The translations under genes and the position numbers were made by a program. Positions 1 through 30,876 of a DNA stretch of 52,270 bases are shown piece after piece. Origin of the DNA: an uncultured bacterium (lineage in GTDB: Bacteria > Patescibacteriota > Minisyncoccia > Phycocordibacterales > UBA1006); contig CALMMZ010000181.1 in NCBI GenBank assembly GCA_937868685.1, forward strand, positions 1-52,270. Direction: 5' to 3'. The notes below the pieces were generated by a model. The model searched no databases, was not told the DNA's origin, and saw nothing but the letters and a program-made list of their open reading frames with translations. Each line of letters begins with the position of its first letter. Positions within the stretch are counted from its first letter, which is position 1.

Positions 1-806
1 GTCCGACCATGACTTCCTTGGTCAGCTTGCACCTTTTCACCCTTCGGGGTAAGATATTGATGATAGACTTGTAAATAATACTTAAAATTTTTGTCACTTG
101 CAAAGGGAGAAGAAAAATCTTTTAATTGACATCCTGAAACTTGATAAGAGAGTGTAGCAATGTTTTTGGCCGCGACAAAAATATTTTGCCAATCTTGAGA
201 AGAAAGAGTATTTCCTTTGCGAAAAGGAGAAATCTTAGCTGCATATAAAATTTCGGCCACTAAATAATTACCAATTCCCGAGACAAATTTTTCTTGATCC
301 ATCAAGAGAGAAAGTATATCTCTGTTTGATTTTTGAGCAGCAACTCGAGTGATGAAATTTTCCCAAGTACTGTCTTGAAGTATACCTGGAGCTAACTTTT
401 GAGATAAATCTTCAGGAGAAAAATAAACATTACCAAATCTTCTTGCGTCTGAATAAACAAATGATGTGGGAAAAGGTGCTTTTCCTTCAATGTTAAATTT
501 AAAGGCAGCATGTTTCATCTCTTGTTCAGAAGGTGTAAAAGTAAAGGTGCCAGTCATACCCAAACCAGCATAAATATTAAATATTGCTTTTTCTCCTGAG
601 ATTTGTTTTAGCGAGAAAATAATCATCTTTCCTTTGGCTGAAACTTTTTCTACATATAAGGGAAGTTGAGCAAGAAATTCTTTGAAAAATGGAGGAGGTT
701 TATTTTTATATTTACCACCAACAATTTCAATATGTTTTAAGGCCTTTCCTTGTAAATATAAATGGAGATAATCAGCTACCAATTGTACTTCTGGACCTTC
801 GGGCAT
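1..806 (-). CDS. Nei/Fpg-family DNA glycosylase (endonuclease VIII-like); C-terminus runs off the window start
   Basis: Minus-strand frame is open from the window edge up to the ATG at 806. It is missing from the ORF track because no stop lies in the window. Own translation: MPEGPEVQLVADYLHLYLQGKALKHIEIVGGKYKNKPPPFFKEFLAQLPLYVEKVSAKGKMIIFSLKQI... It has the N-terminal P-E-G-P-E-V catalytic motif of Fpg/Nei enzymes and an H2TH-like SGIGNYLVAEILYA stretch encoded near 241-300. The upstream in-frame ATG at 842 is unlikely because catalysis uses Pro2. Confidence 0.75.
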   Translation of the reverse strand, partial: MPEGPEVQLVADYLHLYLQGKALKHIEIVGGKYKNKPPPFFKEFLAQLPLYVEKVSAKGKMIIFSLKQISGEKAIFNIYAGLGMTGTFTFTPSEQEMKHAAFKFNIEGKAPFPTSFVYSDARRFGNVYFSPEDLSQKLAPGILQDSTWENFITRVAAQKSNRDILSLLMDQEKFVSGIGNYLVAEILYAAKISPFRKGNTLSSQDWQNIFVAAKNIATLSYQVSGCQLKDFSSPFASDKNFKYYLQVYHQYLTPKGEKVQADQGSHGR

Positions 807-851
807 GTTCTTTTTCTTTCTTAAAGAAGAAAGAAATTTCATTTTATTTCT

Positions 852-1547
852 TTACAATCGGAGCAACTTCAAAGTGTAGTTAATTTCATTATCCTTACGA
901 ACCATGTTAATATCCATCTCACTTAGAGGTCCAGCTGAAGCGTTTCCTTTTTCAATTGCCTTTACTTTCATCTTTGCCGCTGTATACAAAATCTCACGAA
1001 CAAACATTCTCACAAAAATGTCAATTAAATCAGCTTGATTATTAAGTACACATTCGGTAGGTCCGTCACCAAAAGAACATTGAGTTGAGATTTGTTTCAA
1101 TTGATAAGTTTCAATATTCTTAATTAAAGCTCGGCGAATTCCACCAATTGTAAGTAAACGAAGAAGTGAGATCACTTCGGATGTATGTGAAATCACACGC
1201 TTTTCAATCAACTTACTCAAGAGATATGAAAGATCACGAGCGAAGACAATTAAAATCAATTTGACATCTGTAGTCATTTCAATCTGAAGAGATTGAGCAA
1301 TATTTGTCACCATATTAGCAGTGTCACTTGGATCAGCAGCAGTGTCACTGGGTGCGATTACATTACTAATTTTAGCAAACAAAGTTGGACGGATTCGTTG
1401 AATCAATGGAGAATGAACTTCTTTCACTTCCTTTCGCAACTTCAAAGAGGGTTGTTTCGGACTTCGCCGCGAACTCTTTCGTGAGCGTGAACTCTTCCGC
1501 GAACTCTTTCGTGAGCGTGAACTCTTCCGTGAATGTGACTTGGGCAT
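852..1547 (-). CDS. Histone doublet: H2B-like plus H2A-like histone folds in one chain, with a Ser/Arg/Lys-rich N-terminal tail
   Basis: 231 aa. First fold: ISHTSEVISLLRLLTIGGIRRALIKNIETYQ resembles H2B [29 protein letters not shown]. Second fold: ADLIDIFVRMFVREILYTAAKMKVKA...INMVRKDNEINYTLKLL resembles H2A [24 protein letters not shown]...LAIRNDEELNKLL. Tail: SRKSSRSRKSSRKSSRSRKSSRRSPK. Confidence 0.7.
   Translation of the reverse strand: MPKSHSRKSSRSRKSSRKSSRSRKSSRRSPKQPSLKLRKEVKEVHSPLIQRIRPTLFAKISNVIAPSDTAADPSDTANMVTNIAQSLQIEMTTDVKLILIVFARDLSYLLSKLIEKRVISHTSEVISLLRLLTIGGIRRALIKNIETYQLKQISTQCSFGDGPTECVLNNQADLIDIFVRMFVREILYTAAKMKVKAIEKGNASAGPLSEMDINMVRKDNEINYTLKLLRL
1471..1530. repeat. 30-bp tandem repeat x2, coding for the histone tail
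   Basis: gaactctttcgtgagcgtgaactcttccgc at 1471..1500 is repeated at 1501..1530 with one mismatch. It encodes SRKSSRSRKS units. Confidence 0.85.
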
Positions 1548-1594
1548 AGTTTTTGAAGAGTATCAAAATTTTTATTTTAATTTTAAAGGAAAGA

Positions 1595-1821: not shown

Positions 1822-2286
1822 ATGTCTCAGTTAGATTGTGTTATTTACGAAATTCCTTTTATTGAAAGTAAAGAGATAAACAAATTTTTGAATTTATTAA
1901 ATTTGATATTTCCCAATTATAATTATTATCAATCTTTCTTTTCAGAGTTTTGTATTAAAAGAAAATCTCAAATTGTTTATGCTGAAGTCGATGGGGTTCT
2001 TCGGGGTCTCGCAATAGTTTATGTTGATGATGAAATAGGAAAGTATCATATGACAAATTTTGGGGTACATCAAGACTATCGAAAAAAAGGAATTGGTGAT
2101 AAAATTCTTTCAAAAATTAAACAAAAATATTCACCTTTTGTTCTCATGGTTGACAGAAGTGATAAACAGACTATTGAATTCTATCAAAAAAGAGGTTTAA
2201 CCCCGGAAGGATGTTTCCCCAATTGTAAAGAGATTGAGGAATTTTTATTATTGAAATATTCTAATACATCGATTAAAAATGATTAA
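1822..2286 (+). CDS. GNAT-family N-acetyltransferase
   Basis: 154 aa. HQDYRKKGIGDKIL matches the acetyl-CoA binding Q/R-x-x-G-x-G/A motif. C-terminal FYQKRGL is typical of GNAT folds. Confidence 0.7.
   Translation: MSQLDCVIYEIPFIESKEINKFLNLLNLIFPNYNYYQSFFSEFCIKRKSQIVYAEVDGVLRGLAIVYVDDEIGKYHMTNFGVHQDYRKKGIGDKILSKIKQKYSPFVLMVDRSDKQTIEFYQKRGLTPEGCFPNCKEIEEFLLLKYSNTSIKND
2194..2216. repeat. GTTTAAC-family repeat copy inside the GNAT ORF
   Basis: ggtttaaccccggaaggatgttt, encoding GLTPEGCF. Confidence 0.5.
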
Positions 2287-2315: not shown

Positions 2316-2645
2316 ATGAGAAAGAGATCTCCACGACAAAAATCTCCACGATTGGGAAAACGATCTCCACGATTGGGAAAACGATCTCCACGATTGGGAA
2401 AAGGATCTCCACGATTGGGAAAAGGATCTCCACGACGAAAAGAAAGACCTCCACGTCGGCCTGTACCTCCAATACGTCAGGAACGTCGACACACTCGATA
2501 TTTCGAATTTGTTTCTCTGATTGCTGCAGGTTTAACCTCAGAAGGAAGTTTAACCTCGGAAAAATGGTCATCTTTTCTTCTAAAAGGTTTGTACAATCCT
2601 CAACTTTTCATTTTGATAGCTAAGTTTATCTATTTTAAAAATTGA
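2316..2645 (+). CDS. basic SPRLGK-repeat protein carrying the shared C-terminal W-x-x-FL-x-x-x-LYDPRL module
   Basis: Three ORFs overlap across the 21-bp repeat. Only this frame ends in a tail (GLTSEGSLTSEKWSSFLLKGLYNPQLFILIAKFIYF) that is conserved at the C-termini of ORFs 49291..50274 and 51129..51800. The N-terminus has five (K/G)SPRLGK units (SPKK-like). Confidence 0.5.
   Translation: MRKRSPRQKSPRLGKRSPRLGKRSPRLGKGSPRLGKGSPRRKERPPRRPVPPIRQERRHTRYFEFVSLIAAGLTSEGSLTSEKWSSFLLKGLYNPQLFILIAKFIYFKN
2326..2460. repeat. 21-bp tandem repeat array
   Basis: atctccacgattgggaaaa(c/g)g occurs four times (2342..2425), flanked by degenerate copies. Confidence 0.85.
2529..2566. repeat. GTTTAAC-family repeat copies inside ORF 2316..2645
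   Basis: ggtttaacctcagaaggaagtttaacctcggaaaaatg, encoding GLTSEGSLTSEKW. Confidence 0.6.
2638..2645 (+). promoter_or_regulatory. AAAATTGA early-promoter-like motif
   Basis: Exact AAAATTGA(TTTC) overlapping the stop of the upstream gene. Lies upstream of ATG 2686. Confidence 0.55.
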
Positions 2646-3097: not shown

Positions 3098-3427
3098 TTA
3101 ACAGGTGAAAAGACTAATAACACGTGTTACATTTTTAAGATATGGTGTAATTTGAGTTGTTTGCTTGAATTTACCCGGTTCAAATTTACCTTCTTGACCA
3201 TATCCTGTGAGCATGCGGTACAGATCGTAGTATCTTTGTTGTCCTTCTGGAGCTTTGTCATAAGGAGTTCCCAGAGAACAATCCTCTGAAGTGTATCCTT
3301 TCTCATTTTCTTGCACCCAATAATCAAGTAACTTATTTTCTTCTTCAGTAAGGTCCTTATTTTCAACTACATAAGCGGTAAAAGAACCGATTTTATTTTC
3401 ATCAGTTAAAATAACAATGGTGGACAT
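3098..3427 (-). CDS. hypothetical protein, tandem paralogue A
   Basis: MSTIVILTDENKIGSFTAYVVENKDLTEEENKLLDYWVQENEKG...ITPYLKNVTRVI is clearly homologous to ORF 3529..3864. ATG 3427 is preferred because the longer ORF start (3466) lies inside a palindrome. Confidence 0.6.
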   Translation of the reverse strand: MSTIVILTDENKIGSFTAYVVENKDLTEEENKLLDYWVQENEKGYTSEDCSLGTPYDKAPEGQQRYYDLYRMLTGYGQEGKFEPGKFKQTTQITPYLKNVTRVISLFTC

Positions 3428-3488
3428 TTGAAGTTTTCTTTCCTTTGAAAGGGAAAGAGAAATCATTTTTTTGAAGAGCGAATTGTAC

Positions 3489-3528: not shown

Positions 3529-3864
3529 TTAAAAATCATAAAATTTAATCAAACGAGTTACATTTTTGAGATATGGTGTAATACAGTTTGTCTTCTTAAA
3601 TTTACCTGGTTTAAATTGACCCTCTTCACCACGGCCATAACCAGTAGTCATATAAAAGATATCATAATGTTTTTGTTCTTCTTCAGAAGCTTTGTCATAA
3701 GGAGTTCGTAAAGAACAATCTGCATTCGAAATTCCTTTTTCATTCTGTTTTACCCAATAATCAAGAACTTTGTTTTCTTCTTCAGTAAGTTCCTTATTGT
3801 CGACTACATAAAAATCAGGACCTTCCAAGGTTCCATCAACTCCCACTACCACAATAGTCGTCAT
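3529..3864 (-). CDS. hypothetical protein, tandem paralogue B
   Basis: MTTIVVVGVDGTLEGPDFYVVDNKELTEEENKVLDYWVKQNEKG...ITPYLKNVTRLI. Has TCAATTTT (the AAAATTGA motif on its own strand) at 3904..3911. Confidence 0.6.
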   Translation of the reverse strand: MTTIVVVGVDGTLEGPDFYVVDNKELTEEENKVLDYWVKQNEKGISNADCSLRTPYDKASEEEQKHYDIFYMTTGYGRGEEGQFKPGKFKKTNCITPYLKNVTRLIKFYDF

Positions 3865-3911: not shown

Positions 3912-4496
3912 TTAGAAGTAACTTGCAGTTGCTTCTGCCCAAGGTTTACTTGGTTTTTTCAATTGGCTATTGACTCGTTCATGGAGGAGATAACTCCAAT
4001 GAAAGAGTTTAACATTCGAGGCAAAGAATTGATCAATGGGGTGATCAGCTAAATTACCAGAAAGATGAGCACGACATTTCGGACAAGGTAAACAAAATTG
4101 AAGACAGCTCACGAAAGCTTTGTAACTTTTCGCATATTGGGTCGTATTATTATAATTTGCTGCAAACCAATGGATCATTTTCCAAGTGGGGTGCGACCAA
4201 ACAGTGATAGTAATATTTGAATCGGCATACTTTTTCAATAATTCATCATATTGTACCATCACAAAATGATGGACATACTTATTCACTTCTTGATGAAGAT
4301 TGAACACCCATTCGAAAGCCTTTTGTGAATAGGGATATTTAGCGTAAGCTTCTGTCAACCATTTCTTCTCCTGAGCTGGCATCATTGTAAGAGATGACTC
4401 AAAGAGACATTGAAAAGGTTGAATCATCTCCGCTCGGTAATACGACGCCATTGCGTAGAGCATTTGAAAGAAATCAACCAACGGAAAAATAGCCAT
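3912..4496 (-). CDS. Erv1/ALR-family FAD-linked sulfhydryl oxidase
   Basis: 194 aa. C-x-x-C redox motif in LPCPKCRAHL, then HWSYLLHERVNSQLKK (Erv1/ALR-type H...N core). Confidence 0.75.
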   Translation of the reverse strand: MAIFPLVDFFQMLYAMASYYRAEMIQPFQCLFESSLTMMPAQEKKWLTEAYAKYPYSQKAFEWVFNLHQEVNKYVHHFVMVQYDELLKKYADSNITITVWSHPTWKMIHWFAANYNNTTQYAKSYKAFVSCLQFCLPCPKCRAHLSGNLADHPIDQFFASNVKLFHWSYLLHERVNSQLKKPSKPWAEATASYF

Positions 4497-13501: not shown

Positions 13502-15148
13502 ATGTCGCTTTACGAAGTCAAATTCAAAGGAGAACAAAAAGGTCCATGGATCCCTTTTCGTGGAGAAGCTACTGAAGTTATTGAGTCGGGATTTCGCGTG
13601 TTAAACAAACCAGTTTTGTTATATGAACATGCTTATGTCGGAGAAAAGATTAATCCAAATGACAAAACTTTTCCAGATGAATTTATAGTACAATTATTTT
13701 ATAACTATGATCAACAGAGTTTTATTCGTAATAAGAATTTACTCCGCATGCTAGAGAAGATGTCACAAAATTTATCTGCCGAAGGATTTTTCAGCATGGC
13801 ATCGATTCCTTTTGCTTATCGATTTTATCCTAGTCCTCGTTCTTTTAACAAACAAACGAACACAAGTTATGCACTCATGAGATCACCCCCTGTTTGGAAG
13901 CATATTCTCGATACTTCAACTTCTCGTTTTCATTGGTTTATGTTTAATGCGTTGTCAGCTCTTTTTTATCTCCATAAATTGGGTATTGTACATCGTGCTA
14001 TTTCACCAGAAACTGTCTATTTTTCAAAGGATAATAATGACTATTCACCTTCTATTTTTATTCACGATTTTAGCTCGGCTTGCTGGTTAGAAGATCAAAC
14101 TGATCTCACTCAAATTGTAAGATGTCGTGAATCACCTCCAATGTATGATTATACTGATCCTGTTTTATTGCCAAAATCAAGACAATTATTGCAACAACAA
14201 CGAGATAAAAATAAAAGTAAGATCTCTTCCGAAGAAGAAAAGAAAATTCGTGATGACATGGATGGTCTCAAGAAGAAAATGGCCGAGTTAAATAAAGAAA
14301 TCAACGACGCAAAAGGAAATGATCGTACTCGTCTAGAAGGACAGCGAAAAGAACTAAGAAAAAGATTGGGCGAACTTGGGGGAAAATTACACGGTCGTCC
14401 AGGAGAAGGAGAACGAATGTCACAAGCAGTGTACGCTCCTTACACTGATAAATCTGATGTATTTTCAATGGGGATGTTATTTTATCAAATTGCAACTCAA
14501 GGCATCGGTTATACCAATGAAGCGCTCGATCCTTGGGATCCAACCAGAGAAAATACTATTAGTATGCCTCCAGATCAAATTGAAGTTTTTAACGCGCGTA
14601 AACAGCGTTTAACTCGTACAAATCTTTCGCCATTGTTGCGAGATATCATTTTGGGGATGATTCAACCTGAACATAAAGATCGCTTGGATGCTGGTATGGC
14701 TTTAAAGAAATTAATTTCTGCACACAATCCTGAGATGCAGATTCCCGATTTACCACCTTTTACCTCGGGAGCACCACAAAAAGAAATTCTACAATATCTT
14801 GGTTCGCGAGAATATCCCGAATTACAAGGAGCAAATATTAATACTCTGGCTAAAATGATGACGCAAAAATGGGCTGATGTTGACGCAAAAATTGACCATC
14901 AAGATCCAGCTAGTGAATTTTATGGATCATTCCGAGAAAGTAGGTTAAATCCCTCTCCTCCACCAGCTGAATTTTGGGCTTACTGCGTTGGTAAAGGTTT
15001 GTGTTACACAGCTGCGGTGGGAATTCCTCTTGTGGTTGGTGGTTTAAATCCAGTTGCTGCGGGTGTTGGATTGGCGACCGCCGGACTTGGAGCCGCCGGT
15101 GTACACAATCGATTGTTGCAAAAGATATCGGAGCGATGGAGACGGTAA
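13502..15148 (+). CDS. protein-kinase-like protein, probable pseudokinase, with a coiled-coil insert and a Gly-rich C-terminal hydrophobic segment
   Basis: 548 aa. LHKLGIVHRAISPETVYF (HRD replaced by HRA), IHDFSSA (DFG-like), SDVFSMGMLFYQI (subdomain IX-like). Charged insert KISSEEEKKIRDDMDGLKKKMAELNKEINDAKG. C-terminal GIPLVVGGLNPVAAGVGLATAGLGAAGV. Confidence 0.6.
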   Translation: MSLYEVKFKGEQKGPWIPFRGEATEVIESGFRVLNKPVLLYEHAYVGEKINPNDKTFPDEFIVQLFYNYDQQSFIRNKNLLRMLEKMSQNLSAEGFFSMASIPFAYRFYPSPRSFNKQTNTSYALMRSPPVWKHILDTSTSRFHWFMFNALSALFYLHKLGIVHRAISPETVYFSKDNNDYSPSIFIHDFSSACWLEDQTDLTQIVRCRESPPMYDYTDPVLLPKSRQLLQQQRDKNKSKISSEEEKKIRDDMDGLKKKMAELNKEINDAKGNDRTRLEGQRKELRKRLGELGGKLHGRPGEGERMSQAVYAPYTDKSDVFSMGMLFYQIATQGIGYTNEALDPWDPTRENTISMPPDQIEVFNARKQRLTRTNLSPLLRDIILGMIQPEHKDRLDAGMALKKLISAHNPEMQIPDLPPFTSGAPQKEILQYLGSREYPELQGANINTLAKMMTQKWADVDAKIDHQDPASEFYGSFRESRLNPSPPPAEFWAYCVGKGLCYTAAVGIPLVVGGLNPVAAGVGLATAGLGAAGVHNRLLQKISERWRR

Positions 15149-18054: not shown

Positions 18055-19482
18055 ATGTCAAAAACTCTTGAATGGTTATATTCACTTGAACCAAAAAGAC
18101 AAAAAAGACCTTCAACTCCAGAAAGAAAAATATTTTTATTGAAATATATTGCAACTACTGATCGTAATAATCTTTGTTCTTTCTTTCATGTGCTTGATGT
18201 CTTAGATATGTATGGTGTATGGAATCAGGAGAGCTTAAACATGGCACAATACCTTGTCGCTCAATACTATTTTATAGATAATGGTATGAAAGTTTCAGAA
18301 GAAAAGAGTGCTCACTTTTTTGTTAAATTAGCTTGTTCGTTGCACTTTCCTTCATTTTTTTACTATATTACCTTGCTGAGCAAGCAAAAAAAGTGTCATA
18401 AAGATGAAATTGATACATACTTTAATGTAGCACTATTGTTAATGTTATCAAATGATTATTACAAATATTCGAACTATCAGTTGATCCAAAGTGTTTTTCT
18501 TTTATTTGAAAAGAAAGAAGGGCCTGTATCATTAAAGAAGATTTTTTCAGATATTCTACTTCAGGCTGAAGGGCAGTTCCCAACTGAGATGTTAATTCTT
18601 TGTCGAAAAGTACAACAAAACTTTATGACATTGACTGAACAACCACTTGAAGAAGTTAAGTATATTGACTTAGTTTGTCCACAACGAATTTATTCTTTCG
18701 ATCAAAAAGATTTCCCTTTTTCACTCAACTCTTTACGACTTGGTGTTGGTGTATTAGGAACAGTTTATCAAGATAAAAACGGAAATGCTGTTAAGAGATG
18801 TAAATGGGAATACAAATCGGATGTTATGAGTGAAACATCGTTAGTTCGTTTTTTGGATCATCCCAATTTAATTCAACATTATTGTGTTTCTGTTCACAAC
18901 ATGGTACATCTTCGCTTTCATATTGAAATGCCCCGTTTTCCATTTAATTTAAATGATAAGTTTAATGAGATACGTGGTAATTCAAAAATTATTAAACCTA
19001 TTATTGCACAGGTACTAAAAGCTTTATTGTATCTTCACGAGCGCTCGATCCTCCACCGAGATGTTAAATTATCAAATATATTGTTTGATGAAAAATATCA
19101 CGCCGTTTTGTGTGATTTCTCTTTGGCTAAATTTTCTCCAATTCAAGAGAAGGCCGAAAGACTTGTACAAACTTATGAGTATCGAGCTCCTGAAGTATAC
19201 ACCAATAAAATCTCCACCGACAAGATGGATATTTGGTCGGTGGGAAGTGTATTAATTCATCTTTATTCGTCAGCCCGGTTTATACAACATTTAAAAGGAA
19301 TCAATTCAATTGGTGAAAGAGAATGGGGCATCATGATTCGAAAAGAAGATTGGTGGGAACCATTGGTTGAAATCCAAGATCTCTTGTTGAAAGATTTAAT
19401 TCGACAGATGGTCAAACAAGATCCCTCCCAACGTTATTCAGCACATGAGTGTTTACAACATGAATACTTTTACAAGAAATAA
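18055..19482 (+). CDS. Ser/Thr protein kinase with a ~220-aa N-terminal helical (cyclin-like?) domain
   Basis: 475 aa. GVGVLGTVY (G-loop), AVKRCK, LHERSILHRDVKLSNILF (HRD...N), LCDFSLAK, TYEYRAPEV, DIWSVGSVL. The N-terminal TPERKIFLLKYI motif is shared with ORFs 28919 and 30877. Confidence 0.8.
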   Translation: MSKTLEWLYSLEPKRQKRPSTPERKIFLLKYIATTDRNNLCSFFHVLDVLDMYGVWNQESLNMAQYLVAQYYFIDNGMKVSEEKSAHFFVKLACSLHFPSFFYYITLLSKQKKCHKDEIDTYFNVALLLMLSNDYYKYSNYQLIQSVFLLFEKKEGPVSLKKIFSDILLQAEGQFPTEMLILCRKVQQNFMTLTEQPLEEVKYIDLVCPQRIYSFDQKDFPFSLNSLRLGVGVLGTVYQDKNGNAVKRCKWEYKSDVMSETSLVRFLDHPNLIQHYCVSVHNMVHLRFHIEMPRFPFNLNDKFNEIRGNSKIIKPIIAQVLKALLYLHERSILHRDVKLSNILFDEKYHAVLCDFSLAKFSPIQEKAERLVQTYEYRAPEVYTNKISTDKMDIWSVGSVLIHLYSSARFIQHLKGINSIGEREWGIMIRKEDWWEPLVEIQDLLLKDLIRQMVKQDPSQRYSAHECLQHEYFYKK

Positions 19483-20085: not shown

Positions 20086-20988
20086 ATGGTCCTTCCGCCG
20101 TTAAAGCGTTATACCATTACTTTTACTGTGGCAACCAATTGGAGTATCAATCATATTCTTTTCTTCCAAGAACATCAATTTGCTCAATGTTCCAAAGATC
20201 CTCTCTTAGATTTGAAAAAGAATCAACACTCTCTGCCCCACGTTCCAATTGGTACCATTTTGTCCCTGAAATACAAAGATGAAAATGGAAAGGTTCACTT
20301 CCGCGGCTATGGAAATGCGTCTACATCTTGTTTTTCCAATGTTACATCGGCCAAAATTTATGTTGGTAAAATTGTTGATGTAAAGATACCTTCTTTTGGG
20401 AAGATTCAAATTACTGGTTGTCTTGATGATTCACAAGCATACAAAACCATTCAAACAATTTGGAAGTCAATTCAAGAAATTGAGAAGAGAAAACCCGAAT
20501 TTGTTACACTTCCTCCACAAGAGCCTCCGAAAGCAATTTACAATCCCGTAATGAACAATGTGAGTATTCATATTAATTTTGAAATTAATCGTAAGAAATT
20601 ACAAACTTTTCTATATCGTTACCAAGGAGATAATTTTCTTCTTCCCGTTAAAGATGAAAGATATGCTGGAATTAAAATTGAAGCCAAAATAAATAGTATT
20701 TCTGAGATTCCGATTGTCCAACATCGATTTTTAAATGGAAAATGGTACAGTTCACAAGTAACAATGAATGACTTCTTGGCATTGCTGACAGGTAAAAGTC
20801 GAAAAGAAGAATTGATGAAGAAGTATCAACATGTAATTTTAATGTTTCACTCAGGTAAATTAATTTACATTGCTCCCCGCTTTGAATTAATGCCTGAATT
20901 CTATCGCTATTTTCTTAATATTCTCCAAGAGAATCGCGACAAAATTGAGGAAACTTGTCAACATGAGACTTCAAAAATAACCACATAA
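20086..20988 (+). CDS. possible TATA-box-binding-protein-like protein
   Basis: 300 aa with two pseudo-repeats, each ending in a TBP-like F-x-(S/F)-GK-(I/L)-x-(I/Y)-(T/I)-(G/A) strand: PSFGKIQITGCLDDSQAYK and MFHSGKLIYIAPRFE. VMNNVSIHINFEINRKKL is like TBP IQNxVxSxDvxfxI. Weak, by-eye call only. Confidence 0.4.
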   Translation: MVLPPLKRYTITFTVATNWSINHILFFQEHQFAQCSKDPLLDLKKNQHSLPHVPIGTILSLKYKDENGKVHFRGYGNASTSCFSNVTSAKIYVGKIVDVKIPSFGKIQITGCLDDSQAYKTIQTIWKSIQEIEKRKPEFVTLPPQEPPKAIYNPVMNNVSIHINFEINRKKLQTFLYRYQGDNFLLPVKDERYAGIKIEAKINSISEIPIVQHRFLNGKWYSSQVTMNDFLALLTGKSRKEELMKKYQHVILMFHSGKLIYIAPRFELMPEFYRYFLNILQENRDKIEETCQHETSKITT

Positions 20989-24379: not shown

Positions 24380-24387
24380 TCAATTTT
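24380..24387 (-). promoter_or_regulatory. AAAATTGA early-promoter-like motif
   Basis: TCAATTTT overlaps the kinesin stop codon. Lies upstream of minus-strand ATG 24337. Confidence 0.5.
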
Positions 24388-26872
24388 CATTTTGAATTGG
24401 AGTTACAATATTTCTTTCCACAACAGGTGTTTTCAAAATGCGTAATTGTGATTCCAAATCTTTAATCTTTTTCTCATAATCAAGTTGACGTCGTTTAAAG
24501 TCACTCGTTACTTCTTGTAGCTTATTGTTATTATTTCGTAAATGATCTTCTAGAGTCTTGATATGTCTTGAACGACCTTCCAATTGAGCTTTCAATTCTT
24601 CTTCTACAATAGCCAATTGAGAATATTTGTCATGTAAACGATGTAATTCTTCTTTTGTTTGAGTATCTTCTTCAGTTGTTTTCCATGTTTTTAACATATT
24701 TTCACGTAAGGTATTATTTTCTTCACACAAGGAAGCTACTTTTCCTCTCAACCCTCCATTCTCTTCCTCCAAAGTTAATGACCTTTGATTAGCAAATTTA
24801 ATGGCTTGATCGGCAGTCTCTTCTTTTTCTTTCAAACTAGACTGAGATTGTTCCAATTCTTTTTCTAAAGTATAAATTCGTTCTTGAATTATGGTTTGAT
24901 TTTGTCGCAAGTTCTCGATTTCCAGTATCTTTTGTCCTAAATCATCCTGGCAATGACGTAAATCATCTTGATATTTATTTGCTTCTGAACGAACTTTTTC
25001 GATTTCAGATTTAACCACGCTAATACCTTTTTGTAATTCAGTGACTAAAGCAGTCTTACTGTCAAGTTCTTCGGCCAATTTTTGGAATTGATCCAATGAT
25101 TCTTCATAATTGGCCGGTGTTAAAGTTGGTTGGACAATGAGATTATATTCTTTCTTGAAATCTTTGACATCAATCCCTTTTTTCTCACAAATGTCAATCA
25201 GACGATTTAAATCGCTGGTCAATGCAGAAATAATGATTTGTTGTGTTGCTAATTTTTCATTTGCCTCGTAAAGCAATCGTTTATATTCTTCAATATTCAT
25301 TTCTAAATTCACCACTGGTTTATTGAGAATAGTTTGTGTAATTGCCCCAAATCTTAGTGTCGACAAGGTTTCTTCATAATTAAATTTAGCTGGTGAACAG
25401 GTGATCACAAGATGAGTTTTACTATTCCCACCCAATGAATCAGTCAAGAGCCGTGTCAACTTTGAATCGCGATAAGGAATAAAAGGTTTCTTTTCAGCCA
25501 AACAGCGAATAACAATACCTAATGTTAATAGAGATTTATTGGTGGCATTGGCCTGCTTGAGTAATAAACCTTCGGCTTTGGTCTTGGCAATTTTTTCTGA
25601 ACCAGCCAAATCGACAAAGACAATACGAGATGTAATCTTTTTTCCTGTTTTCACATCAGTTTGTTGTACGTGCATCACTAAGATTGAATGACTCCGAGAA
25701 GAATGAGCATTTAAAGCGGTTGCGGCGACTGTTCGATTTAATTCACCTTTTCGCATAATTCGGACAGCATCTTCAAAACAATTGACATAAGTCTCGGTTA
25801 CTTCTTCAATCCACAATCCACGAAAGCGATCTTCACGAATTTTAAGATCATCTCTCAAGGGTGCTAATAAATCGCGAATTTTTTCTAAATAAATTTCCAC
25901 ATAAGACATACTTACAAGAAATTCATATCCTTTTTTGTTGCGAATTGCGGTAAAGAGATCTTTAATCAAACGGGGTACCACTCCCATTTCACTTTCTGTT
26001 TTCCATAATTCACCTTCTTGAGAAAGAAGATCGGCATTGTCGACTGCTGCCGCATAACCGGTCATGGTAGTTGTTTTACCTGAATTATGAGTCACAACTC
26101 CATCTGCAAGTAAAAACCTCGCAGGACATCCTTCAATCGGTTTTAATTGAAAACCAGCATATAATCCCATACTCAATTCCTCAAATTGAATGGGGTAGAC
26201 GATCAATTGTTTTTTATGTTGTCTGACACCAAGATATCCACGTGGATTCTTTAAGACTTCTTTCAAGGGGATATCCACAATTTTACCTTGTAATGATAAA
26301 GTTAGAACGTGATCAAGATTGACTGTATAAAAACTTTTACTTTCAGTGTCAATTACTTTGTACATATGAGAAATACCAGTATATAATTTGATTACTTCAC
26401 GAAGATTTCCTTGATCATCTAGTAATTTGTCTTCGATTTTGATATCTCTGGCTTGAATCGGTGAACCATCAGCCAGCATCACTAAAGTATCAGGAGATAA
26501 ACAAGCCGATTGACCGTAAGCGAAAATAGTGGCATTGTACCCTTGAAGAATCTCATGAATTAAGGGTTTTCCCACTGCAGTGTATACTTGTTCCTGAGTC
26601 GCTTTCTCATCAAAGACTTTATCATAGAAATATTTATTTTCTTTGGTTTCTTGTGGGAGATGTACAACATTTCCTTCCAAACGAATCATTCGAGTTGCAC
26701 CATTTTTCAATTCTGTTTCATTACAAGGTCGAAAACGACAAAAAACTTTGACATTTTTGTCTTCAACCGAGGTTTGCTTATCGGGGAGTTTTTCTTTCTC
26801 ACCTTTTGGTTCTCGTGGCGAAAGAACTTTATTTTTTCCCTTCATAAAAAAGAGATTTTCTTTTCTTAACAT
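24380..26872 (-). CDS. kinesin-like motor protein (N-terminal motor, C-terminal coiled coil) interrupted by a mini-intein
   Basis: 830 aa. VKVFCRFRP, IFAYGQSA[140-aa insert]SGKTTTM (P-loop), NAHSSRSHS (switch I), VDLAGSEK (switch II), YRDSKLTRLL. Residues from about 540 onward are heptad-rich (Glu/Leu/Lys/Gln). Confidence 0.9.
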   Translation of the reverse strand: MLRKENLFFMKGKNKVLSPREPKGEKEKLPDKQTSVEDKNVKVFCRFRPCNETELKNGATRMIRLEGNVVHLPQETKENKYFYDKVFDEKATQEQVYTAVGKPLIHEILQGYNATIFAYGQSACLSPDTLVMLADGSPIQARDIKIEDKLLDDQGNLREVIKLYTGISHMYKVIDTESKSFYTVNLDHVLTLSLQGKIVDIPLKEVLKNPRGYLGVRQHKKQLIVYPIQFEELSMGLYAGFQLKPIEGCPARFLLADGVVTHNSGKTTTMTGYAAAVDNADLLSQEGELWKTESEMGVVPRLIKDLFTAIRNKKGYEFLVSMSYVEIYLEKIRDLLAPLRDDLKIREDRFRGLWIEEVTETYVNCFEDAVRIMRKGELNRTVAATALNAHSSRSHSILVMHVQQTDVKTGKKITSRIVFVDLAGSEKIAKTKAEGLLLKQANATNKSLLTLGIVIRCLAEKKPFIPYRDSKLTRLLTDSLGGNSKTHLVITCSPAKFNYEETLSTLRFGAITQTILNKPVVNLEMNIEEYKRLLYEANEKLATQQIIISALTSDLNRLIDICEKKGIDVKDFKKEYNLIVQPTLTPANYEESLDQFQKLAEELDSKTALVTELQKGISVVKSEIEKVRSEANKYQDDLRHCQDDLGQKILEIENLRQNQTIIQERIYTLEKELEQSQSSLKEKEETADQAIKFANQRSLTLEEENGGLRGKVASLCEENNTLRENMLKTWKTTEEDTQTKEELHRLHDKYSQLAIVEEELKAQLEGRSRHIKTLEDHLRNNNNKLQEVTSDFKRRQLDYEKKIKDLESQLRILKTPVVERNIVTPIQNEN
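26084..26503 (-). mobile_element. mini-intein (140 aa, no homing-endonuclease domain) inside the kinesin P-loop
   Basis: Residues 124-263 of the kinesin ORF. Starts CLSPDTLVMLADGSPI (block-A-like, Cys1). Has NLDH (block-B-like). Ends FLLADGVVTHN, followed by Ser (+1). Removing it restores GQSASGKTTTM. Confidence 0.8.
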
Positions 26873-26895: not shown

Positions 26896-27306
26896 ATGGA
26901 ATTTCTCGAACGAAATCGAAATTTGGCCGATCAATCACGCTTTGCTGAGGCAATGCGAAAAATTCAACAAAAAAGTCTGGAAGAAAGACGGGCAGAATGT
27001 AAAAGAATTTTCGTCAAAAAGCCTTCTAATATTCCAGTAATCGTGATTCCCGCCAAAGGAATTCAACTCGACAAGTTGAAATACATTTGTGACAATGATA
27101 TGACGATAGAAAAATTAAACTATGTGATTGTCAGGCGAATTATTTCTTCTACACCAGTGCCTGAAAGAGCCTACTTTTTTATTACCGAGGATAAACAAAT
27201 TCCACCAACTGATATGTTAATTCGAGACCTCTATCGTAAACAAAAAAATGAAGATTTTACTCTCCATCTTTACTTAATTGGTGAAGATACTTTTGGTTGT
27301 GATTAA
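26896..27306 (+). CDS. Atg8/LC3/GABARAP-family ubiquitin-like protein
   Basis: 136 aa. Collinear with Atg8/GABARAP: SLEERRAECKRIFVKKPSNIPVIV (compare [23 protein letters not shown]), LDKLKYICDNDMTIEKLNYVIVRRI (compare [25 protein letters not shown]), AYFFITEDKQIPPTDMLIRDLYRKQKNEDFTLHLYLIGEDTFG-CD (compare [42 protein letters not shown]). Confidence 0.85.
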   Translation: MEFLERNRNLADQSRFAEAMRKIQQKSLEERRAECKRIFVKKPSNIPVIVIPAKGIQLDKLKYICDNDMTIEKLNYVIVRRIISSTPVPERAYFFITEDKQIPPTDMLIRDLYRKQKNEDFTLHLYLIGEDTFGCD

Positions 27307-28918: not shown

Positions 28919-30319
28919 ATGGACCGAGATGATGCTTTTTTGTCAAAAGCTTTACAGCGAAACATAAAACGGAGATATTTGTTTCCTCCCAAAGTGCCAC
29001 CTGTTTTTACATCTCGTGAAGAACGAATAACATATATTTTAGAAATTTATGGTTATATGACATTGCGAAAAAACGATTTTCCCTACGCCGCTGCAATTCA
29101 ATCTATCTGCTACAGCGATACTTTACCTTCAATTGACCGTGAGCTTCTCTTTGGATGTATTGGAATGGGCATTTGTTTGGAAGAAGCTTCGTTGGATGAT
29201 TGTTATTTATATGAAATTTTCTTGGCATCAGGCCATTCCTTCGACGAAGAGGGTAATGAAAAATTTCGTTTGACCCTTAAAGCTATTGATCAATTTCCCA
29301 ACATCTATCTTGAAACACCAGATCGAATGTTATCCCTGTTTTGGAAGGATTATCTTTCACTTGAAATGTATCAAAAAATTTTACTTCATTTATGCCATCA
29401 TCCCTTTGAGGGGAAGAAAACTGCACTTCCCTTCTTACAAGAACGGGAGATTCAACCTTTTCTTTCCTTTGAAAAAATTGTAGAAAAAAAGATACCACGT
29501 TGGAAATTTCTCCCTCATCAAGAAGACGACAGTCTTTATCAAGGTGCTCATTCACAAACTAGAAGATGGGTCTCAGCAGAAGATCCCGAAACTTACATTG
29601 TCAAAACTTATGGTAATCAACTTGAAATGGAGGCGGGCATTCGAGAACTTTATTCTTTAACTATTTTTGATCATCCAAATATTGTCAAGTGTCATGGTTG
29701 GTCTATTTCCGAGGATTTTACTCAAATTCAATTTTTCTTGGAAGATGGTGGAGAAGAAATTGATTGTCGTTACACCACTTTAAAATGGTTGAAGAAATAT
29801 ACACCTCAGATTTTAAGAGCTCTCCGTCATATTCACACTCGAGGATTTGCTTACCGTGATTTGAAAACTCCCAATCTTGTCTTTCGTCGTGGTAAAATTA
29901 CATTAATCGATTTTGGCATGGTTCGTCGAACAAATTGTGTTGGTGGAAGTCCTTACATGATGTCTTTTGCAATTGGACCCGCGGAAATCTTTGCAGGAAG
30001 TTGCATTTATTGGGGAGCAGTTGATATCTGGTCATTGGGTATGTTACTTTATGTTTTAACACAAAAGAAGTATCCACTTGGAGTAAAAGGAATGGCCTCT
30101 TATCGGGGAAAATATTTATATACTAAAGCTTTTCTTGAACAATTAACACCAGAAGAAGAACTTGAATTTAAGCAGATGAAGAAAAATAATACATCTTTAA
30201 TAATTGACGGAAAAGTGTCTGATATTCAAAATCAAAAATTAAGAGCTTTGATTAAACGATGTTTTTCCGCCAGAGCACCTTCGGCAGGTGAATTATTGCA
30301 AGATCCTTTCTTTGAATAA
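28919..30319 (+). CDS. cyclin-box-like N-terminal domain fused to a Ser/Thr protein kinase
   Basis: 466 aa. N-terminal SREERITYILEIYGYM ... FRLTLKAIDQFPNIYLETPDRMLSLFW (cyclin-box-like L-x-F-x-L-x-x-P-T-P-x-x-F-L pattern). Kinase motifs: IHTRGFAYRDLKTPNLVF, LIDFGMVRR, VDIWSLGMLLYVL. Confidence 0.75.
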   Translation: MDRDDAFLSKALQRNIKRRYLFPPKVPPVFTSREERITYILEIYGYMTLRKNDFPYAAAIQSICYSDTLPSIDRELLFGCIGMGICLEEASLDDCYLYEIFLASGHSFDEEGNEKFRLTLKAIDQFPNIYLETPDRMLSLFWKDYLSLEMYQKILLHLCHHPFEGKKTALPFLQEREIQPFLSFEKIVEKKIPRWKFLPHQEDDSLYQGAHSQTRRWVSAEDPETYIVKTYGNQLEMEAGIRELYSLTIFDHPNIVKCHGWSISEDFTQIQFFLEDGGEEIDCRYTTLKWLKKYTPQILRALRHIHTRGFAYRDLKTPNLVFRRGKITLIDFGMVRRTNCVGGSPYMMSFAIGPAEIFAGSCIYWGAVDIWSLGMLLYVLTQKKYPLGVKGMASYRGKYLYTKAFLEQLTPEEELEFKQMKKNNTSLIIDGKVSDIQNQKLRALIKRCFSARAPSAGELLQDPFFE

Positions 30320-30338: not shown

Positions 30339-30830
30339 TTAAGCATTTCGAAGTTGATTTAGAAGAGATACAGTAATGGGAGGATGATTTTTCTTTTCGG
30401 CAAAGGCTAAAATATCCTTTCTTCTTTGTTCAAATTGTTCAAGTTTATAAGAAGTATATTTTGCATCGAGAAAGTTATCCAGAAAGTCTGCCACTTTAAT
30501 CATAAAACCATAAACTGACAAAGATTCCAATTTTATTTTCATATATTCAATCTTATTCAGTTGGTTTATTTTTGATTGATCATTTGTTAACTCCTTGACT
30601 AATAAGGAAATTTGTTGATTAAAAGTTTCTTCTAATTCTTCTGGAGTGGTTTTCGTATCTTCCAAAGTATCATGAAGTAAAGCTGCCGCTAAAATGTCTT
30701 CATTTTGCATTCCATGTTGACGAAGTAAACTAGCAACTGAACAACAGTGGACAATATAAGGCAAATGTGTAACTTTACGCTGTTGATCTTTATGTTTGTG
30801 GAGAATAAATGTAAGAGCTTTGGTGAACAT
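30339..30830 (-). CDS. MESH1/SpoT-type HD-domain hydrolase ((p)ppGpp hydrolase-like)
   Basis: ATG 30830. ALTFILHKHKDQQRKVTHLPYIVHCCSVASLL ... ILAAALLHDTLEDTKTTPEELEETF ... LVKELTND is collinear with MESH1 AADFAARKHRQQRRK..PYINHPIGVARIL...AALLHDTVEDTDTT...LVEEVTDD. H-D-x-x-E-D signature present. Confidence 0.8.
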   Translation of the reverse strand: MFTKALTFILHKHKDQQRKVTHLPYIVHCCSVASLLRQHGMQNEDILAAALLHDTLEDTKTTPEELEETFNQQISLLVKELTNDQSKINQLNKIEYMKIKLESLSVYGFMIKVADFLDNFLDAKYTSYKLEQFEQRRKDILAFAEKKNHPPITVSLLNQLRNA

Positions 30831-30867
30831 AAAAATGATTTTACTTTTTGGAAGAAAACTGTTAGAA

Positions 30868-30875
30868 TCAATTTT
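30868..30875 (-). promoter_or_regulatory. AAAATTGA early-promoter-like motif
   Basis: TCAATTTT in the 46-bp divergent spacer. Lies upstream of minus-strand ATG 30830. Confidence 0.5.
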
Positions 30876-30876
30876 T

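What the first reader, a model, noticed from the sequence alone, without database searches (positions are those of the whole stretch)
852..1547. H2B-H2A-like histone doublet with an RS-rich tail in a Mimiviridae-like context
One 231-aa chain carries two histone-fold-like halves:
- the first ends in an H2B-like alphaC region (ISHTSEVISLLRLLTIGGIRRALIKNIETYQ);
- the second ends in an H2A-like docking segment (MVRKDNEINYTLKLL).

Fused H2B-H2A doublets are the hallmark of viral nucleosomes described for Marseilleviridae. Here the surrounding genome instead shows Mimiviridae-type signals (AAAATTGA motif, hairpin-terminated genes).

The N-terminal tail is unusual: SRKSSRSRKSSRKSSRSRKSSRRSPK, encoded by a 30-bp tandem duplication, rather than a Lys-rich tail. 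I found no H4-H3 partner in this window.
Basis: partly seen in the sequence, partly recalled or inferred. Interest (0 to 1): 0.7.

Follow-up and report, generated by a model that had tools for sequence, protein, structure and literature searches.

The report
Possible divergent viral histone doublet
A giant-virus gene encodes a small helical protein with a very basic serine/arginine/lysine repeat tail; it may be an extremely divergent fused histone pair used to condense viral DNA, but only one structure model supports this and every sequence test fails.

Summary
The 231-aa ORF (852-1547, minus strand) is real. It is conserved in five related loci and under purifying selection (dN/dS 0.04-0.19). 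Its Ser/Arg/Lys tail and the 30-bp duplication encoding part of it are confirmed. The genome context is Mimiviridae-type: AAAATTGA is positioned at -34 to -50, and a conserved 3' hairpin shows compensatory changes.

The histone claim is only weakly supported. Pfam, PDB, HMMER with filters off, and profile-profile comparison with genuine viral and eukaryotic H2B-H2A doublets all find nothing. The same method links the most divergent known viral doublet to H2A at E=1e-12.

One of ten AlphaFold models has confident regions. Its only meaningful PDB match is a single-chain H2B-H2A fusion (TM 0.58, prob 0.98, E 0.27). A tail-less re-prediction did not reproduce this. The core is near-neutral, the family is confined to one narrow clade, and no H3/H4 partner was found.

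Best reading: a tail-driven DNA-condensing protein whose helical core is possibly a non-canonical histone-fold pair. Histone doublets are already known from Imitervirales metagenomes, so the Marseilleviridae-only framing is outdated.

The parts
852..1547 (-). Complete CDS, 231 aa plus stop; lineage-specific protein family (6 members known)
   Evidence: ORF. Homologues at 84% and about 50% identity. dN/dS 0.04-0.19.
1380..1547 (-). N-terminal disordered basic tail (residues 1-56): Ser/Arg/Lys repeats, then the conserved segment KLxKEVKxVxSPxxQxxRPxL
   Evidence: pLDDT about 40. Net charge +18, pI 12. Present in every member; length about 30-75 residues through repeat expansion.
1467..1533 (-). 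30-bp tandem duplication (2.2 copies, 97%) encoding SRKSSRSRKS units of the tail
   Evidence: Tandem Repeats Finder. Relatives carry 27-bp and 18-bp units encoding KSKSPSRRR-type repeats.
1149..1331 (-). Candidate first helix-loop-long helix-loop-helix unit (residues 73-133: helices 73-86, 93-116, 122-133), including the KR-x6-[DE]-V-x2-L-L-[RK] segment that resembles the histone L2-alpha3 motif
   Evidence: AF2 model 1 secondary structure and pLDDT 71-85. Best local alignment to H2B falls here but is not significant.
855..1133 (-). Candidate second unit plus C-terminal helix (residues 139-231: helices 139-155, 163-199, 210-218, 220-230). The window and P0001 carry an 8-residue insertion in the loop before residue 206.
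   Evidence: AF2 model 1, pLDDT 75-89 for residues 171-231 and about 50 for 139-170. Alignment A1. Top (non-significant) hhalign match to the H2A-like half of Marseilleviridae Hz-He.
1050..1079 (-). Invariant Cys-pair loop C157-S-x3-G-P-x-E-C166 between the two units; no counterpart in canonical H2A or H2B
   Evidence: Invariant columns in A1. Lowest-confidence part of the core in both models.
813..836 (-). 3' hairpin (10-bp stem, 4-nt loop), 16 nt after the stop codon and before the Nei start at 806
   Evidence: RNA fold in five loci. Stem UUUCUUUCUU/AAGAAAGAAA in the window versus UUUCUUUUCU/AGAAAAGAAA in L001-L003, i.e. compensatory changes.
1548..1594 (.). 47-bp divergent intergenic region shared with the small membrane-protein gene (1595-1813, +). 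Contains the conserved TTTAAAA(A)TTAAAATAAAAA block and no AAAATTGA.
   Evidence: Upstream comparison in five loci. Motif scan.

Best explanation
The gene encodes a two-part protein specific to one narrow clade of Mimiviridae-type giant viruses. Part one is an intrinsically disordered N-terminal tail made of expanding Ser/Arg/Lys repeats (SPxR/K-rich in relatives). It carries essentially all of the protein's positive charge. I infer that it binds and neutralises the AT-rich viral DNA, and that Ser phosphorylation (the window alone encodes at least 7 Ser/Thr-kinase-like genes) switches binding off. This is how SPKK tails of sperm H2B/H1, and protamine-like proteins, work. Part two is a compact, near-neutral alpha-helical core of about 165 residues. 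It most likely folds as an intramolecular pair of helix-loop-long helix-loop-helix units, i.e. a non-canonical histone-fold-like doublet, and acts as a scaffold or oligomerisation module rather than a DNA-wrapping surface. The gene lacks the early AAAATTGA promoter, which fits non-early expression and a role in genome condensation or packaging. Shown: gene reality, tail composition and dynamics, conservation, and transcription signals. Inferred: the fold (one model), DNA binding, phospho-regulation, and timing.
For: The gene is real and constrained: five loci, dN/dS 0.04-0.19 in both tail and core. Gene order is conserved: small TM gene, divergent promoter, this gene, hairpin, Nei glycosylase. 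The tail has net charge +18 to +37 and the core -3 to +2. The tail is present in all members and its length changes through 18-30-bp tandem repeats. Relatives have 3-5 or more SP[x][KR] units. SPKK motifs bind AT-rich minor grooves and are inactivated by Ser phosphorylation (PMC9903204). The genome is 65% A+T. The window holds several kinases. For the fold: AF2 model 1 has two confident blocks (residues 71-120 and 171-231) joined by a beta-bridge between residues 91 and 208. Its only outlying PDB match is the single-chain H2B-H2A fusion 6k03 (TM 0.58 over the whole 166-residue target, rmsd 6.0, prob 0.98; every other hit has TM <=0.28). The best, though non-significant, sequence alignments to H2B, H2A and Hz-He fall at exactly the colinear positions predicted by that model. 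No AAAATTGA lies upstream in any locus, while 15 of 55 window genes have it.
Against: No sequence method detects a histone fold: Pfam, PDB phmmer/hmmsearch, hhalign, and HMMER --max. The same hhalign set-up links Hz-He to H2A at 1.6e-12 and to archaeal HMfB at 7e-6. Only 1 of 10 AF2 models has confident regions (mean pLDDT 63.4). The tail-less run (pLDDT 60) merges helices differently and finds only noise in PDB. BFVD gives nothing. At least 15 other single-chain H2B-H2A PDB entries were not hit, and the Foldseek E-value is only 0.27. The internal-repeat test is not significant. The loops that would face DNA carry invariant acidic residues (E90, D94, E210, D212). The family is absent from the syntenic position in the next-closest viruses and evolves faster than its neighbour (51% vs 72% identity), which is unlike conserved histones. 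DNA binding, phosphorylation and expression timing are untested.
Confidence: 0.4

Rival explanations
1. A non-histone helical ORFan with a protamine-like tail. The core is an unrelated alpha-helical bundle, and the histone resemblance is an artefact of one AF2 model plus a borderline Foldseek hit. The protein still acts through its basic tail as a nucleic-acid-condensing or core protein.
For: All sequence tests are null while positive controls pass. 9 of 10 AF2 models are low confidence and the trimmed model gives no histone hit. BFVD gives no hit. The core is near-neutral. The family has a narrow, ORFan-like distribution in a search of 1.84 billion representatives, and no syntenic homologue exists in sister viruses. 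An invariant Cys pair has no histone counterpart.
Against: No alternative fold is supported either: every non-histone Foldseek hit has TM <=0.28 and prob <=0.11. The single outlier hit is exactly the fold and domain order hypothesised beforehand. The beta-bridge between residues 91 and 208 and the colinear placement of the best local alignments are hard to get by chance (17, 74, 76).
Confidence: 0.35
2. A bona fide H2B-H2A doublet, that pairs with an H4-H3-like protein encoded elsewhere in the genome to build nucleosome-like particles in the virion, as in Marseilleviridae.
For: The top PDB match is a single-chain fusion in the order H2B then H2A. The best local alignments fall on H2B L2-alpha3-alphaC and H2A alpha3-alphaC. 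H2B-H2A-like doublets exist in Imitervirales MAGs (PMC9145170). The basic N-terminal extension sits on the 'H2B' end, as in sperm H2B.
Against: No partner was found in 52 kb or in about 75 kb of related loci. Core net charge is -3 to +2, against +9 to +11 for Hz-He. The chain ends at alphaC with no docking domain. In the shorter members only 13 residues precede the second long helix if 139-155 is H2B alphaC, which is too few for H2A alpha1 plus L1. There is no detectable homology to any H2A or H2B, whereas all published viral doublets were found by sequence.
Confidence: 0.12
3. A host-directed effector. The RS-like tail mimics SR-protein RS domains or a nuclear localisation signal and sends the protein to the host nucleus or speckles, where it interferes with splicing or chromatin.
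For: The tail has 10 RS/SR dipeptides in 56 residues. A compositional Pfam near-hit falls on the SR-rich linker of the coronavirus nucleocapsid (E=0.15).
Against: The tail is as Lys- and SP-rich as it is RS-rich and lacks long (RS)n runs. There is no RRM or other RNA-binding domain. The early promoter motif expected for host-takeover genes is absent. No direct evidence exists.
Confidence: 0.08

Closest known systems
Marseilleviridae H2B-H2A doublets (Hbeta-Halpha, e.g. MEL_369) and the short variant Hzeta-Hepsilon (MEL_149, 'mini H2B-H2A', 168-169 aa)
   Same: A single chain of similar core size (about 165-175 residues) with two candidate histone-fold units. Like Hz-He, it ends soon after the alphaC-equivalent helix. 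It is encoded by a giant virus. The best (non-significant) hhalign alignment pairs residues 177-223 with the H2A-like alpha2-L2-alpha3-alphaC of Hz-He.
   Different: No significant sequence similarity (P=0.19-0.55), whereas Hz-He matches canonical doublets at 1.5e-24. The core is near-neutral (net -3 to +2) against +9 to +11. There is a long S/R/K repeat tail at the N-terminus instead of a short Lys-rich tail. No adjacent divergently transcribed H4-H3 gene: the divergent neighbour is a 72-aa membrane protein. An invariant Cys pair sits between the units.
H2B-H2A-like doublets and '(H2B?)+H2A' proteins of Imitervirales MAGs; H2A-H2B doublets of Klosneuvirus and Indivirus (Talbert et al. 2022, PMC9145170)
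   Same: Mimivirus-related genomes encoding fused histone-fold proteins. Some lack any H3/H4 partner and have shortened H2B alpha2-L2-alpha3 regions. The first long helix here is also short (24 vs about 29 residues).
   Different: Those proteins were found by BLAST or HHpred similarity to H2A (E 5e-4 to 2e-21). This family is not retrievable that way, and an exhaustive profile search of 1.84 billion protein representatives finds only its own small clade.
Sperm-specific H2B (and H1) with N-terminal SPKK repeats in sea urchins and hydrozoans (PMC9903204)
   Same: An extended, tandemly repeated S-P-basic-basic type N-terminal extension on the (putative) H2B-side end. It is expected to bind AT-rich minor grooves and to be switched off by Ser phosphorylation, and it is used to stabilise a transcriptionally silent, packaged genome.
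   Different: Here the fold is unproven. The window protein itself has no strict SP[KR][KR] unit (its repeats are SRKSS/SRSRK), while relatives have 3-5 or more. The origin is certainly independent.
Protamine-like or Arg/Ser-rich viral DNA-condensing core proteins (e.g. baculovirus P6.9, adenovirus VII; from my own knowledge) and the SR-rich linker of coronavirus N
   Same: A highly basic Ser/Arg-rich disordered segment whose nucleic-acid binding is phospho-regulated. There is a compositional near-hit to the CoV nucleocapsid SR region (E=0.15).
   Different: Those proteins lack a conserved 165-residue helical core of this kind. There is no homology.

Membership tests
Histone-fold superfamily (Pfam Histone PF00125 / CBFD_NFYB_HMF PF00808) | Significant match to a histone-fold sequence profile | tested here: not met
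   Pfam at E<=10 gives only a compositional CoV_nucleocap hit. PDB phmmer and profile hmmsearch give 0 hits at E<=10. hhalign vs H2A, H2B, H3, H4 and HMf gives P>=0.16. HMMER --max with 8 histone HMMs does not rank the candidate above random ORFs.
Histone-fold superfamily | Helix-loop-long helix-loop-helix fold paired head-to-tail with L1-L2 beta-bridges | tested here: inconclusive
   AF2 model 1 has helices 73-86, 93-116, 122-133 and 139-155, 163-199, 210-218, with bridge residues 91 and 208. TM is 0.58 to the single-chain H2B-H2A 6k03. However, 9 of 10 models are low-confidence, and the trimmed model and BFVD give no histone hit. The second L1-L2 site is not formed.
Viral H2B-H2A doublets (Marseilleviridae-type) | Detectable homology of the two halves to H2B and H2A respectively | tested here: not met
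   hhalign vs published Hb-Ha plus eukaryotic doublets gives P=0.19, and vs Hz-He P=0.55. Smith-Waterman gives p=0.75 (H2B) and 0.53 (H2A). Positive control: Hz-He vs H2A 1.6e-12.
Viral H2B-H2A doublets (Marseilleviridae-type) | H2B alphaC helix between the folds, plus H2A alphaN/alpha1 and a docking domain after alphaC | tested here: not met
   The chain ends at residue 231, directly after the alphaC-like helix. If 139-155 is H2B alphaC, only about 13 residues (CSxxEGPxECxxN) remain for H2A alpha1 plus L1 in the short members. No AGLQFPV-type motif is present.
Viral H2B-H2A doublets (Marseilleviridae-type) | Basic fold with positively charged DNA-contact loops | tested here: not met
   Core net charge is -3 to +2 and pI 5.5-8.6, against +9 to +11 and pI 9.6 for Hz-He. 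Invariant E90, D94, E210 and D212 lie in the putative L1 and L2 loops. Only K116-R117 are basic.
Viral H2B-H2A doublets (Marseilleviridae-type) | H4-H3 partner encoded in the same genome (adjacent and divergent in Marseilleviridae) | tested here: not met
   Within the 52-kb window and about 75 kb of related loci there is none by Pfam or custom HMMs. The neighbours beyond Nei are acidic, non-histone-like proteins. The rest of the genome is not available, so a distant partner cannot be excluded.
Viral H2B-H2A doublets (Marseilleviridae-type) | Packaged in virions and forms nucleosome-like particles on DNA | not testable with these tools
   Needs proteomics, MNase digestion, reconstitution and cryo-EM.
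SPKK-type basic N-terminal extensions (sperm H2B/H1) | Tandem S-P-[KR]-[KR]-like units in an N-terminal extension | tested here: inconclusive
   SP-x-[KR] units number 0 in the window protein, 3 in P0001, 5 in P0002/L001 and 4 in L002; L003 also has several. The window tail is SRKSS/SRSRK-type. The repeats are tandem at the DNA level.
Mimiviridae-type (Imitervirales) genome | AAAATTGA early promoter about 40-60 nt upstream of the ATG, and hairpin-type 3' ends | tested here: met
   29 occurrences vs 6.9 expected. 12 genes carry it at -34 to -50. A conserved hairpin with compensatory changes follows this gene. Phylogenetic placement by PolB or MCP could not be named, because the hits carry no organism names.

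The most novel reading that the evidence does not exclude
The core is a genuine histone-fold doublet that has diverged beyond all sequence detection. It has lost the basic DNA-wrapping surface and handed DNA binding to a phospho-switchable SPKK/RS repeat tail. This would be a new class of histone-derived genome-packaging protein in a Mimiviridae-type virus that works without H3-H4. It would also imply that HMM-based censuses of viral histones (258 in 168 genomes) substantially undercount them.
Probability: 0.2. Interest if true: 0.75.

Novelty: new variant of a known kind. Interest (0 to 1): 0.45.

Why it matters
Viral histones are central to the debate on how nucleosomes originated. They have been demonstrated experimentally only for Marseilleviridae and medusaviruses, while mimiviruses are thought to package DNA differently. 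If this protein is a histone-fold pair, that would matter in three ways. It would show histone-derived packaging proteins in a Mimiviridae-type lineage. It would show that such proteins can evolve beyond sequence recognition. And it would show charge neutralisation moved from the fold to a sperm-H2B-like repeat tail, a convergent solution to silencing and compacting a genome for transport. If it is not a histone, it is still a clean example of a lineage-specific, tandem-repeat-driven, probably phospho-regulated DNA-condensing protein. It is also a caution that short motif resemblances to histones arise by chance.

Tried and rejected
(1) Pfam, PHROGs, PDB phmmer and PDB profile searches gave no informative hit.

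(2) An exhaustive HMMER profile search of 1.84 billion representatives found only the family itself, one 49-aa fragment and one repetitive 846-aa protein that I judge spurious.

(3) An IMG/VR scan found nothing. A metagenome scan added one member on a 223-kb contig.

A column-shuffle calibration run timed out and was replaced by positive controls and Smith-Waterman shuffles.

(5) The internal-repeat test between the N- and C-halves gave P=0.35.

(6) A BFVD fold search and a PDB search with the tail-less model returned noise.

(7) Synteny test: I looked beside the Nei orthologue in three more distant viruses for a recognisable histone. None was found, and the family is simply absent there.

(8) I looked for an equally divergent partner among the small ORFs next to Nei in the closest relative. 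These are acidic proteins with no basic tail.

(9) I tried to name the virus from PolB relatives, but the hits carry no organism names.

(10) I considered whether the ORF is a non-coding artefact of the repeat. This is rejected by dN/dS and by conservation across five loci.
Full report
WHAT IS THERE.
A 30-bp unit is tandemly duplicated at 1467-1533 (2.2 copies, 97% identity). It encodes part of the N-terminal tail.

The window is a giant-virus segment with 34.9% G+C. It encodes a family-B DNA polymerase, a ribonucleotide reductase small subunit, FEN1/XPG, NUDIX, a TBP-like protein, an Erv1/Alr thiol oxidase and a Nei/Fpg glycosylase. It also encodes a kinesin interrupted by a Hint/intein domain, an ATG8-like protein, an EsV-1-7 repeat protein and at least seven Ser/Thr-kinase-like genes.

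The octamer AAAATTGA occurs 29 times against 6.9+-2.3 expected. It behaves as a positioned promoter element: 15 of 55 genes carry it, 12 of them at -34 to -50 from the ATG. From my own knowledge, this geometry and 3' hairpins are the transcription signals described for Mimiviridae (Suhre 2005; Byrne 2009). The context claim is therefore confirmed.

THE FAMILY.
A word-indexed search of 5.8 billion clusters found four relatives: P0001 (84% identity) and P0002-P0004 (about 50%). An exhaustive HMMER profile search of 1.84 billion representatives added only a fragment. IMG/VR gave nothing. A metagenome scan added one more member on a 223-kb contig (L002). None carries a name or a Pfam domain.

The window's exact protein is absent from the 15-billion-protein collection although its PolB is present. 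In L003 the gene caller truncated the protein at an internal TTG and called a spurious antisense ORF over the repeat. The family is thus prone to mis-annotation.

Gene order is conserved in all loci. A 72-76-aa membrane protein is transcribed divergently from a 47-50-bp shared intergenic region. Then comes this gene, then a perfect 10-11-bp hairpin, then Nei. The hairpin stems differ between lineages by compensatory changes. This also implies that the Nei start is the ATG at 806 (MPEGPEV), not the one at 842.

dN/dS is 0.04-0.18 for the tail and 0.04-0.17 for the core in the closer pairs (0.19 for the core and 0.54 for the tail between the two subclades). The gene is real and both parts are constrained.

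THE TAIL.
Residues 1-56 are disordered (pLDDT about 40). They are 27% Ser, 20% Arg and 16% Lys, with net charge +18. Every member has such a tail. Its basic repeat portion ranges from about 30 to about 75 residues through expansion of 18-, 27-, 30- and 48-bp units that encode KSKSPSRRR-type repeats. Tail net charge reaches +37 in L002.

Relatives contain 3-5 or more S-P-x-[KR] units. The window protein has none and is SRKSS/SRSRK-type.

The closest functional parallel is the SPKK-repeat N-terminal extension of sperm-specific H2B and H1. That extension binds AT-rich minor grooves and is switched off by Ser phosphorylation (PMC9903204).

IS THE CORE A HISTONE DOUBLET? SEQUENCE EVIDENCE.
Every sequence test is negative.
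- Pfam at E<=10 returns only a compositional match of the tail to the SR region of the coronavirus nucleocapsid.
- PDB phmmer and profile searches return nothing at E<=10.
- hhalign of the family alignment against H2A, H2B, H3, H4 and archaeal HMf gives P>=0.16.
- hhalign against real Marseilleviridae Hb-Ha plus human and Acanthamoeba doublets, rebuilt from Talbert et al. 2022 Fig. S4, gives P=0.19.
- hhalign against the short Hz-He doublets gives P=0.55.
- Unfiltered HMMER with eight histone HMMs does not rank the candidate above random ORFs of the window.

The method does have power. With equally shallow alignments, Hz-He matches Hb-Ha at 1.5e-24, H2A at 1.6e-12 and HMfB at 7e-6.

Their scores equal those of shuffled sequences (p=0.75 and 0.53).

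What can be said in favour is positional only. The best alignments, including residues 177-223 vs the H2A-like alpha2-L2-alpha3-alphaC of Hz-He, fall where the structural hypothesis predicts. An internal-repeat test pairs the centres of the two long helices (VFARDLSYLLSKL and MFVREILYTAAKM) but at P=0.35.

STRUCTURE EVIDENCE.
AlphaFold2 with the 5-sequence alignment gave one model with confident regions. Mean pLDDT was 63, with blocks of 71-85 for residues 71-120 and 75-89 for residues 171-231. The four other models scored 41-46.

The confident model has helices 73-86, 93-116, 122-133, 139-155, 163-199, 210-218 and 220-230. It also has single beta-bridge residues at 91 and 208. This resembles the pairing of L1 of one unit with L2 of the other that characterises histone-fold handshakes.

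Foldseek against PDB returned one outlier, 6k03 (prob 0.98, TM 0.58 on the 166-residue target, rmsd 6.0, 173 columns, E=0.27). Every other hit had prob <=0.11 and TM <=0.28. The 6k03 chain is a single-chain fusion in the order H2B then H2A, which is the order proposed in advance. I regard this as real but fragile support, for four reasons:
- At least 15 other single-chain H2B-H2A entries were not hit.
- BFVD, which should hold marseillevirus doublets, gave nothing.
- The tail-less re-prediction was less confident (pLDDT 60) and merged helices 122-148.
- That tail-less model matched only noise in PDB.

FEATURES THAT FIT POORLY WITH A CANONICAL H2B-H2A DOUBLET.
(i) The core is near-neutral: net charge -3 to +2 and pI 5.5-8.6. 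Hz-He has +9 to +11. The putative L1 and L2 loops carry invariant E90, D94, E210 and D212.

(ii) The chain ends right after the alphaC-like helix, so there is no docking domain.

(iii) In the shorter members the segment from C157 to the C-terminus is 67 residues. That fits alpha2 (27) + L2 (5) + alpha3 (10) + alphaC (12) and leaves only about 13 residues. Helix 139-155 is therefore more plausibly alpha1 of the second unit than an H2B alphaC (inference). If it is a doublet, its class is uncertain; it would be archaeal-style, with the two folds directly linked.

(iv) An invariant Cys pair (C157, C166) sits in the inter-unit loop and has no histone counterpart. An Erv1/Alr thiol oxidase lies 3 kb away.

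(v) No H3/H4-like ORF exists in the window or in about 75 kb of related loci.

(vi) In viruses whose Nei is 39-46% identical, the family is absent from the syntenic position and from the fetched loci. Between the window and L001 lineages the protein is 51% identical, while Nei is about 72% identical. It is a fast-evolving, lineage-restricted gene.

WHAT IS KNOWN.
Fused histone doublets are not confined to Marseilleviridae. H2B-H2A-like doublets, an H2B-H2A-H4-H3 quadruplet and '(H2B?)+H2A' proteins are described from Imitervirales MAGs. Klosneuvirus and Indivirus carry H2A-H2B doublets without H3/H4 (PMC9145170). A census found 258 histones in 168 giant-virus genomes (PMC11222145). All of these were found by sequence similarity, which this family lacks.

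CONCLUSION.
The gene, the tail, the duplication and the context hold up. The histone motifs are not above chance.

I put the probabilities as follows:
- 0.4: a tail-driven DNA-condensing protein with a non-canonical histone-fold-like core.
- 0.35: the same function with an unrelated helical core.
- 0.12: a true nucleosomal H2B-H2A doublet.
- 0.08: a host-directed RS-domain mimic.

The decisive tests are multi-method structure prediction or an experimental structure, HHpred with deep alignments, virion proteomics, and DNA-binding assays with phosphomimetic tails.

Noticed in passing
window 24380-26872 (-): An 830-aa kinesin motor protein is interrupted by a Hint/intein domain. Pfam Hom_end_hint matches residues 124-195, and the kinesin motor domain is matched in two stretches, the best at 263-515 (model positions 85-327 of 327). 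An intein inside a virus-encoded kinesin is unusual.
   Followed up: no
window 26896-27306 (+): A 136-aa ATG8/ubiquitin-like autophagy protein homologue (PF02991, E=2.5e-16) encoded by the virus.
   Followed up: no
window 1822-2286 (+): A GNAT-family N-acetyltransferase (E=1e-9) lies two genes upstream of the candidate. It is absent from the equivalent position in L002, so the linkage is not conserved. It would be worth testing as a tail or lysine acetylase if the protein proves to be chromatin-like.
   Followed up: partly
window 3-806 (-) and 813-836: The Nei/Fpg glycosylase gene has an upstream in-frame ATG at 842. Using it would place the conserved terminator hairpin inside the CDS. The functional start is almost certainly ATG 806 (MPEGPEV, with the catalytic Pro2). 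The gene runs off the left edge of the window.
   Followed up: yes
window 2342-2455: A 21-bp tandem repeat (4.5 copies, 98% identity; also scored as period 42) lies within mutually overlapping ORFs at 2248-2645. Its coding status is unclear.
   Followed up: no
window 3098-3466 (-) and 3529-3864 (-): Two adjacent paralogous small genes (122 and 111 aa, sharing LTEEENK-LDYWV-NEKG motifs) with no Pfam match. This looks like a local tandem duplication.
   Followed up: no
window 13502-15148, 18055-19482, 28919-30319, 30796-32241, 41763-42677, 43693-44829: An unusually dense set of Ser/Thr protein-kinase-like genes (at least six to seven in 52 kb). These are candidate kinases for the Ser-rich tail.
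   Followed up: no
window 46534-48252 (+): A 572-aa protein made of 8 EsV-1-7 cysteine-rich repeats (E=2.5e-106). This motif is typical of phaeovirus and algal giant-virus proteins and hints at an algal or protist host.
   Followed up: no
L003 686-964 (-) and 999-1496 (+); window 852-1547: Gene callers mishandle the repeat-encoded tail. P0004 was truncated to a TTG start and a spurious antisense ORF was called over the repeat. The window protein's exact sequence is missing from a 15-billion-protein collection although the neighbouring PolB is present.
   Followed up: yes
window 1050-1079 (-) and 3912-4496 (-): An invariant Cys pair (CSx3GPxEC) in the candidate lies 3 kb from an Erv1/Alr sulfhydryl oxidase, and the two genes are linked in all loci that extend that far. 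This is compatible with a disulfide-stapled virion protein.
   Followed up: no
window 20086-20988 (+); L006 4780-5694: A weak TBP-like protein (E=9e-4). A homologous 304-aa TBP-like gene sits directly upstream of Nei in the more distant virus L006, showing local gene-order reshuffling around Nei.
   Followed up: no
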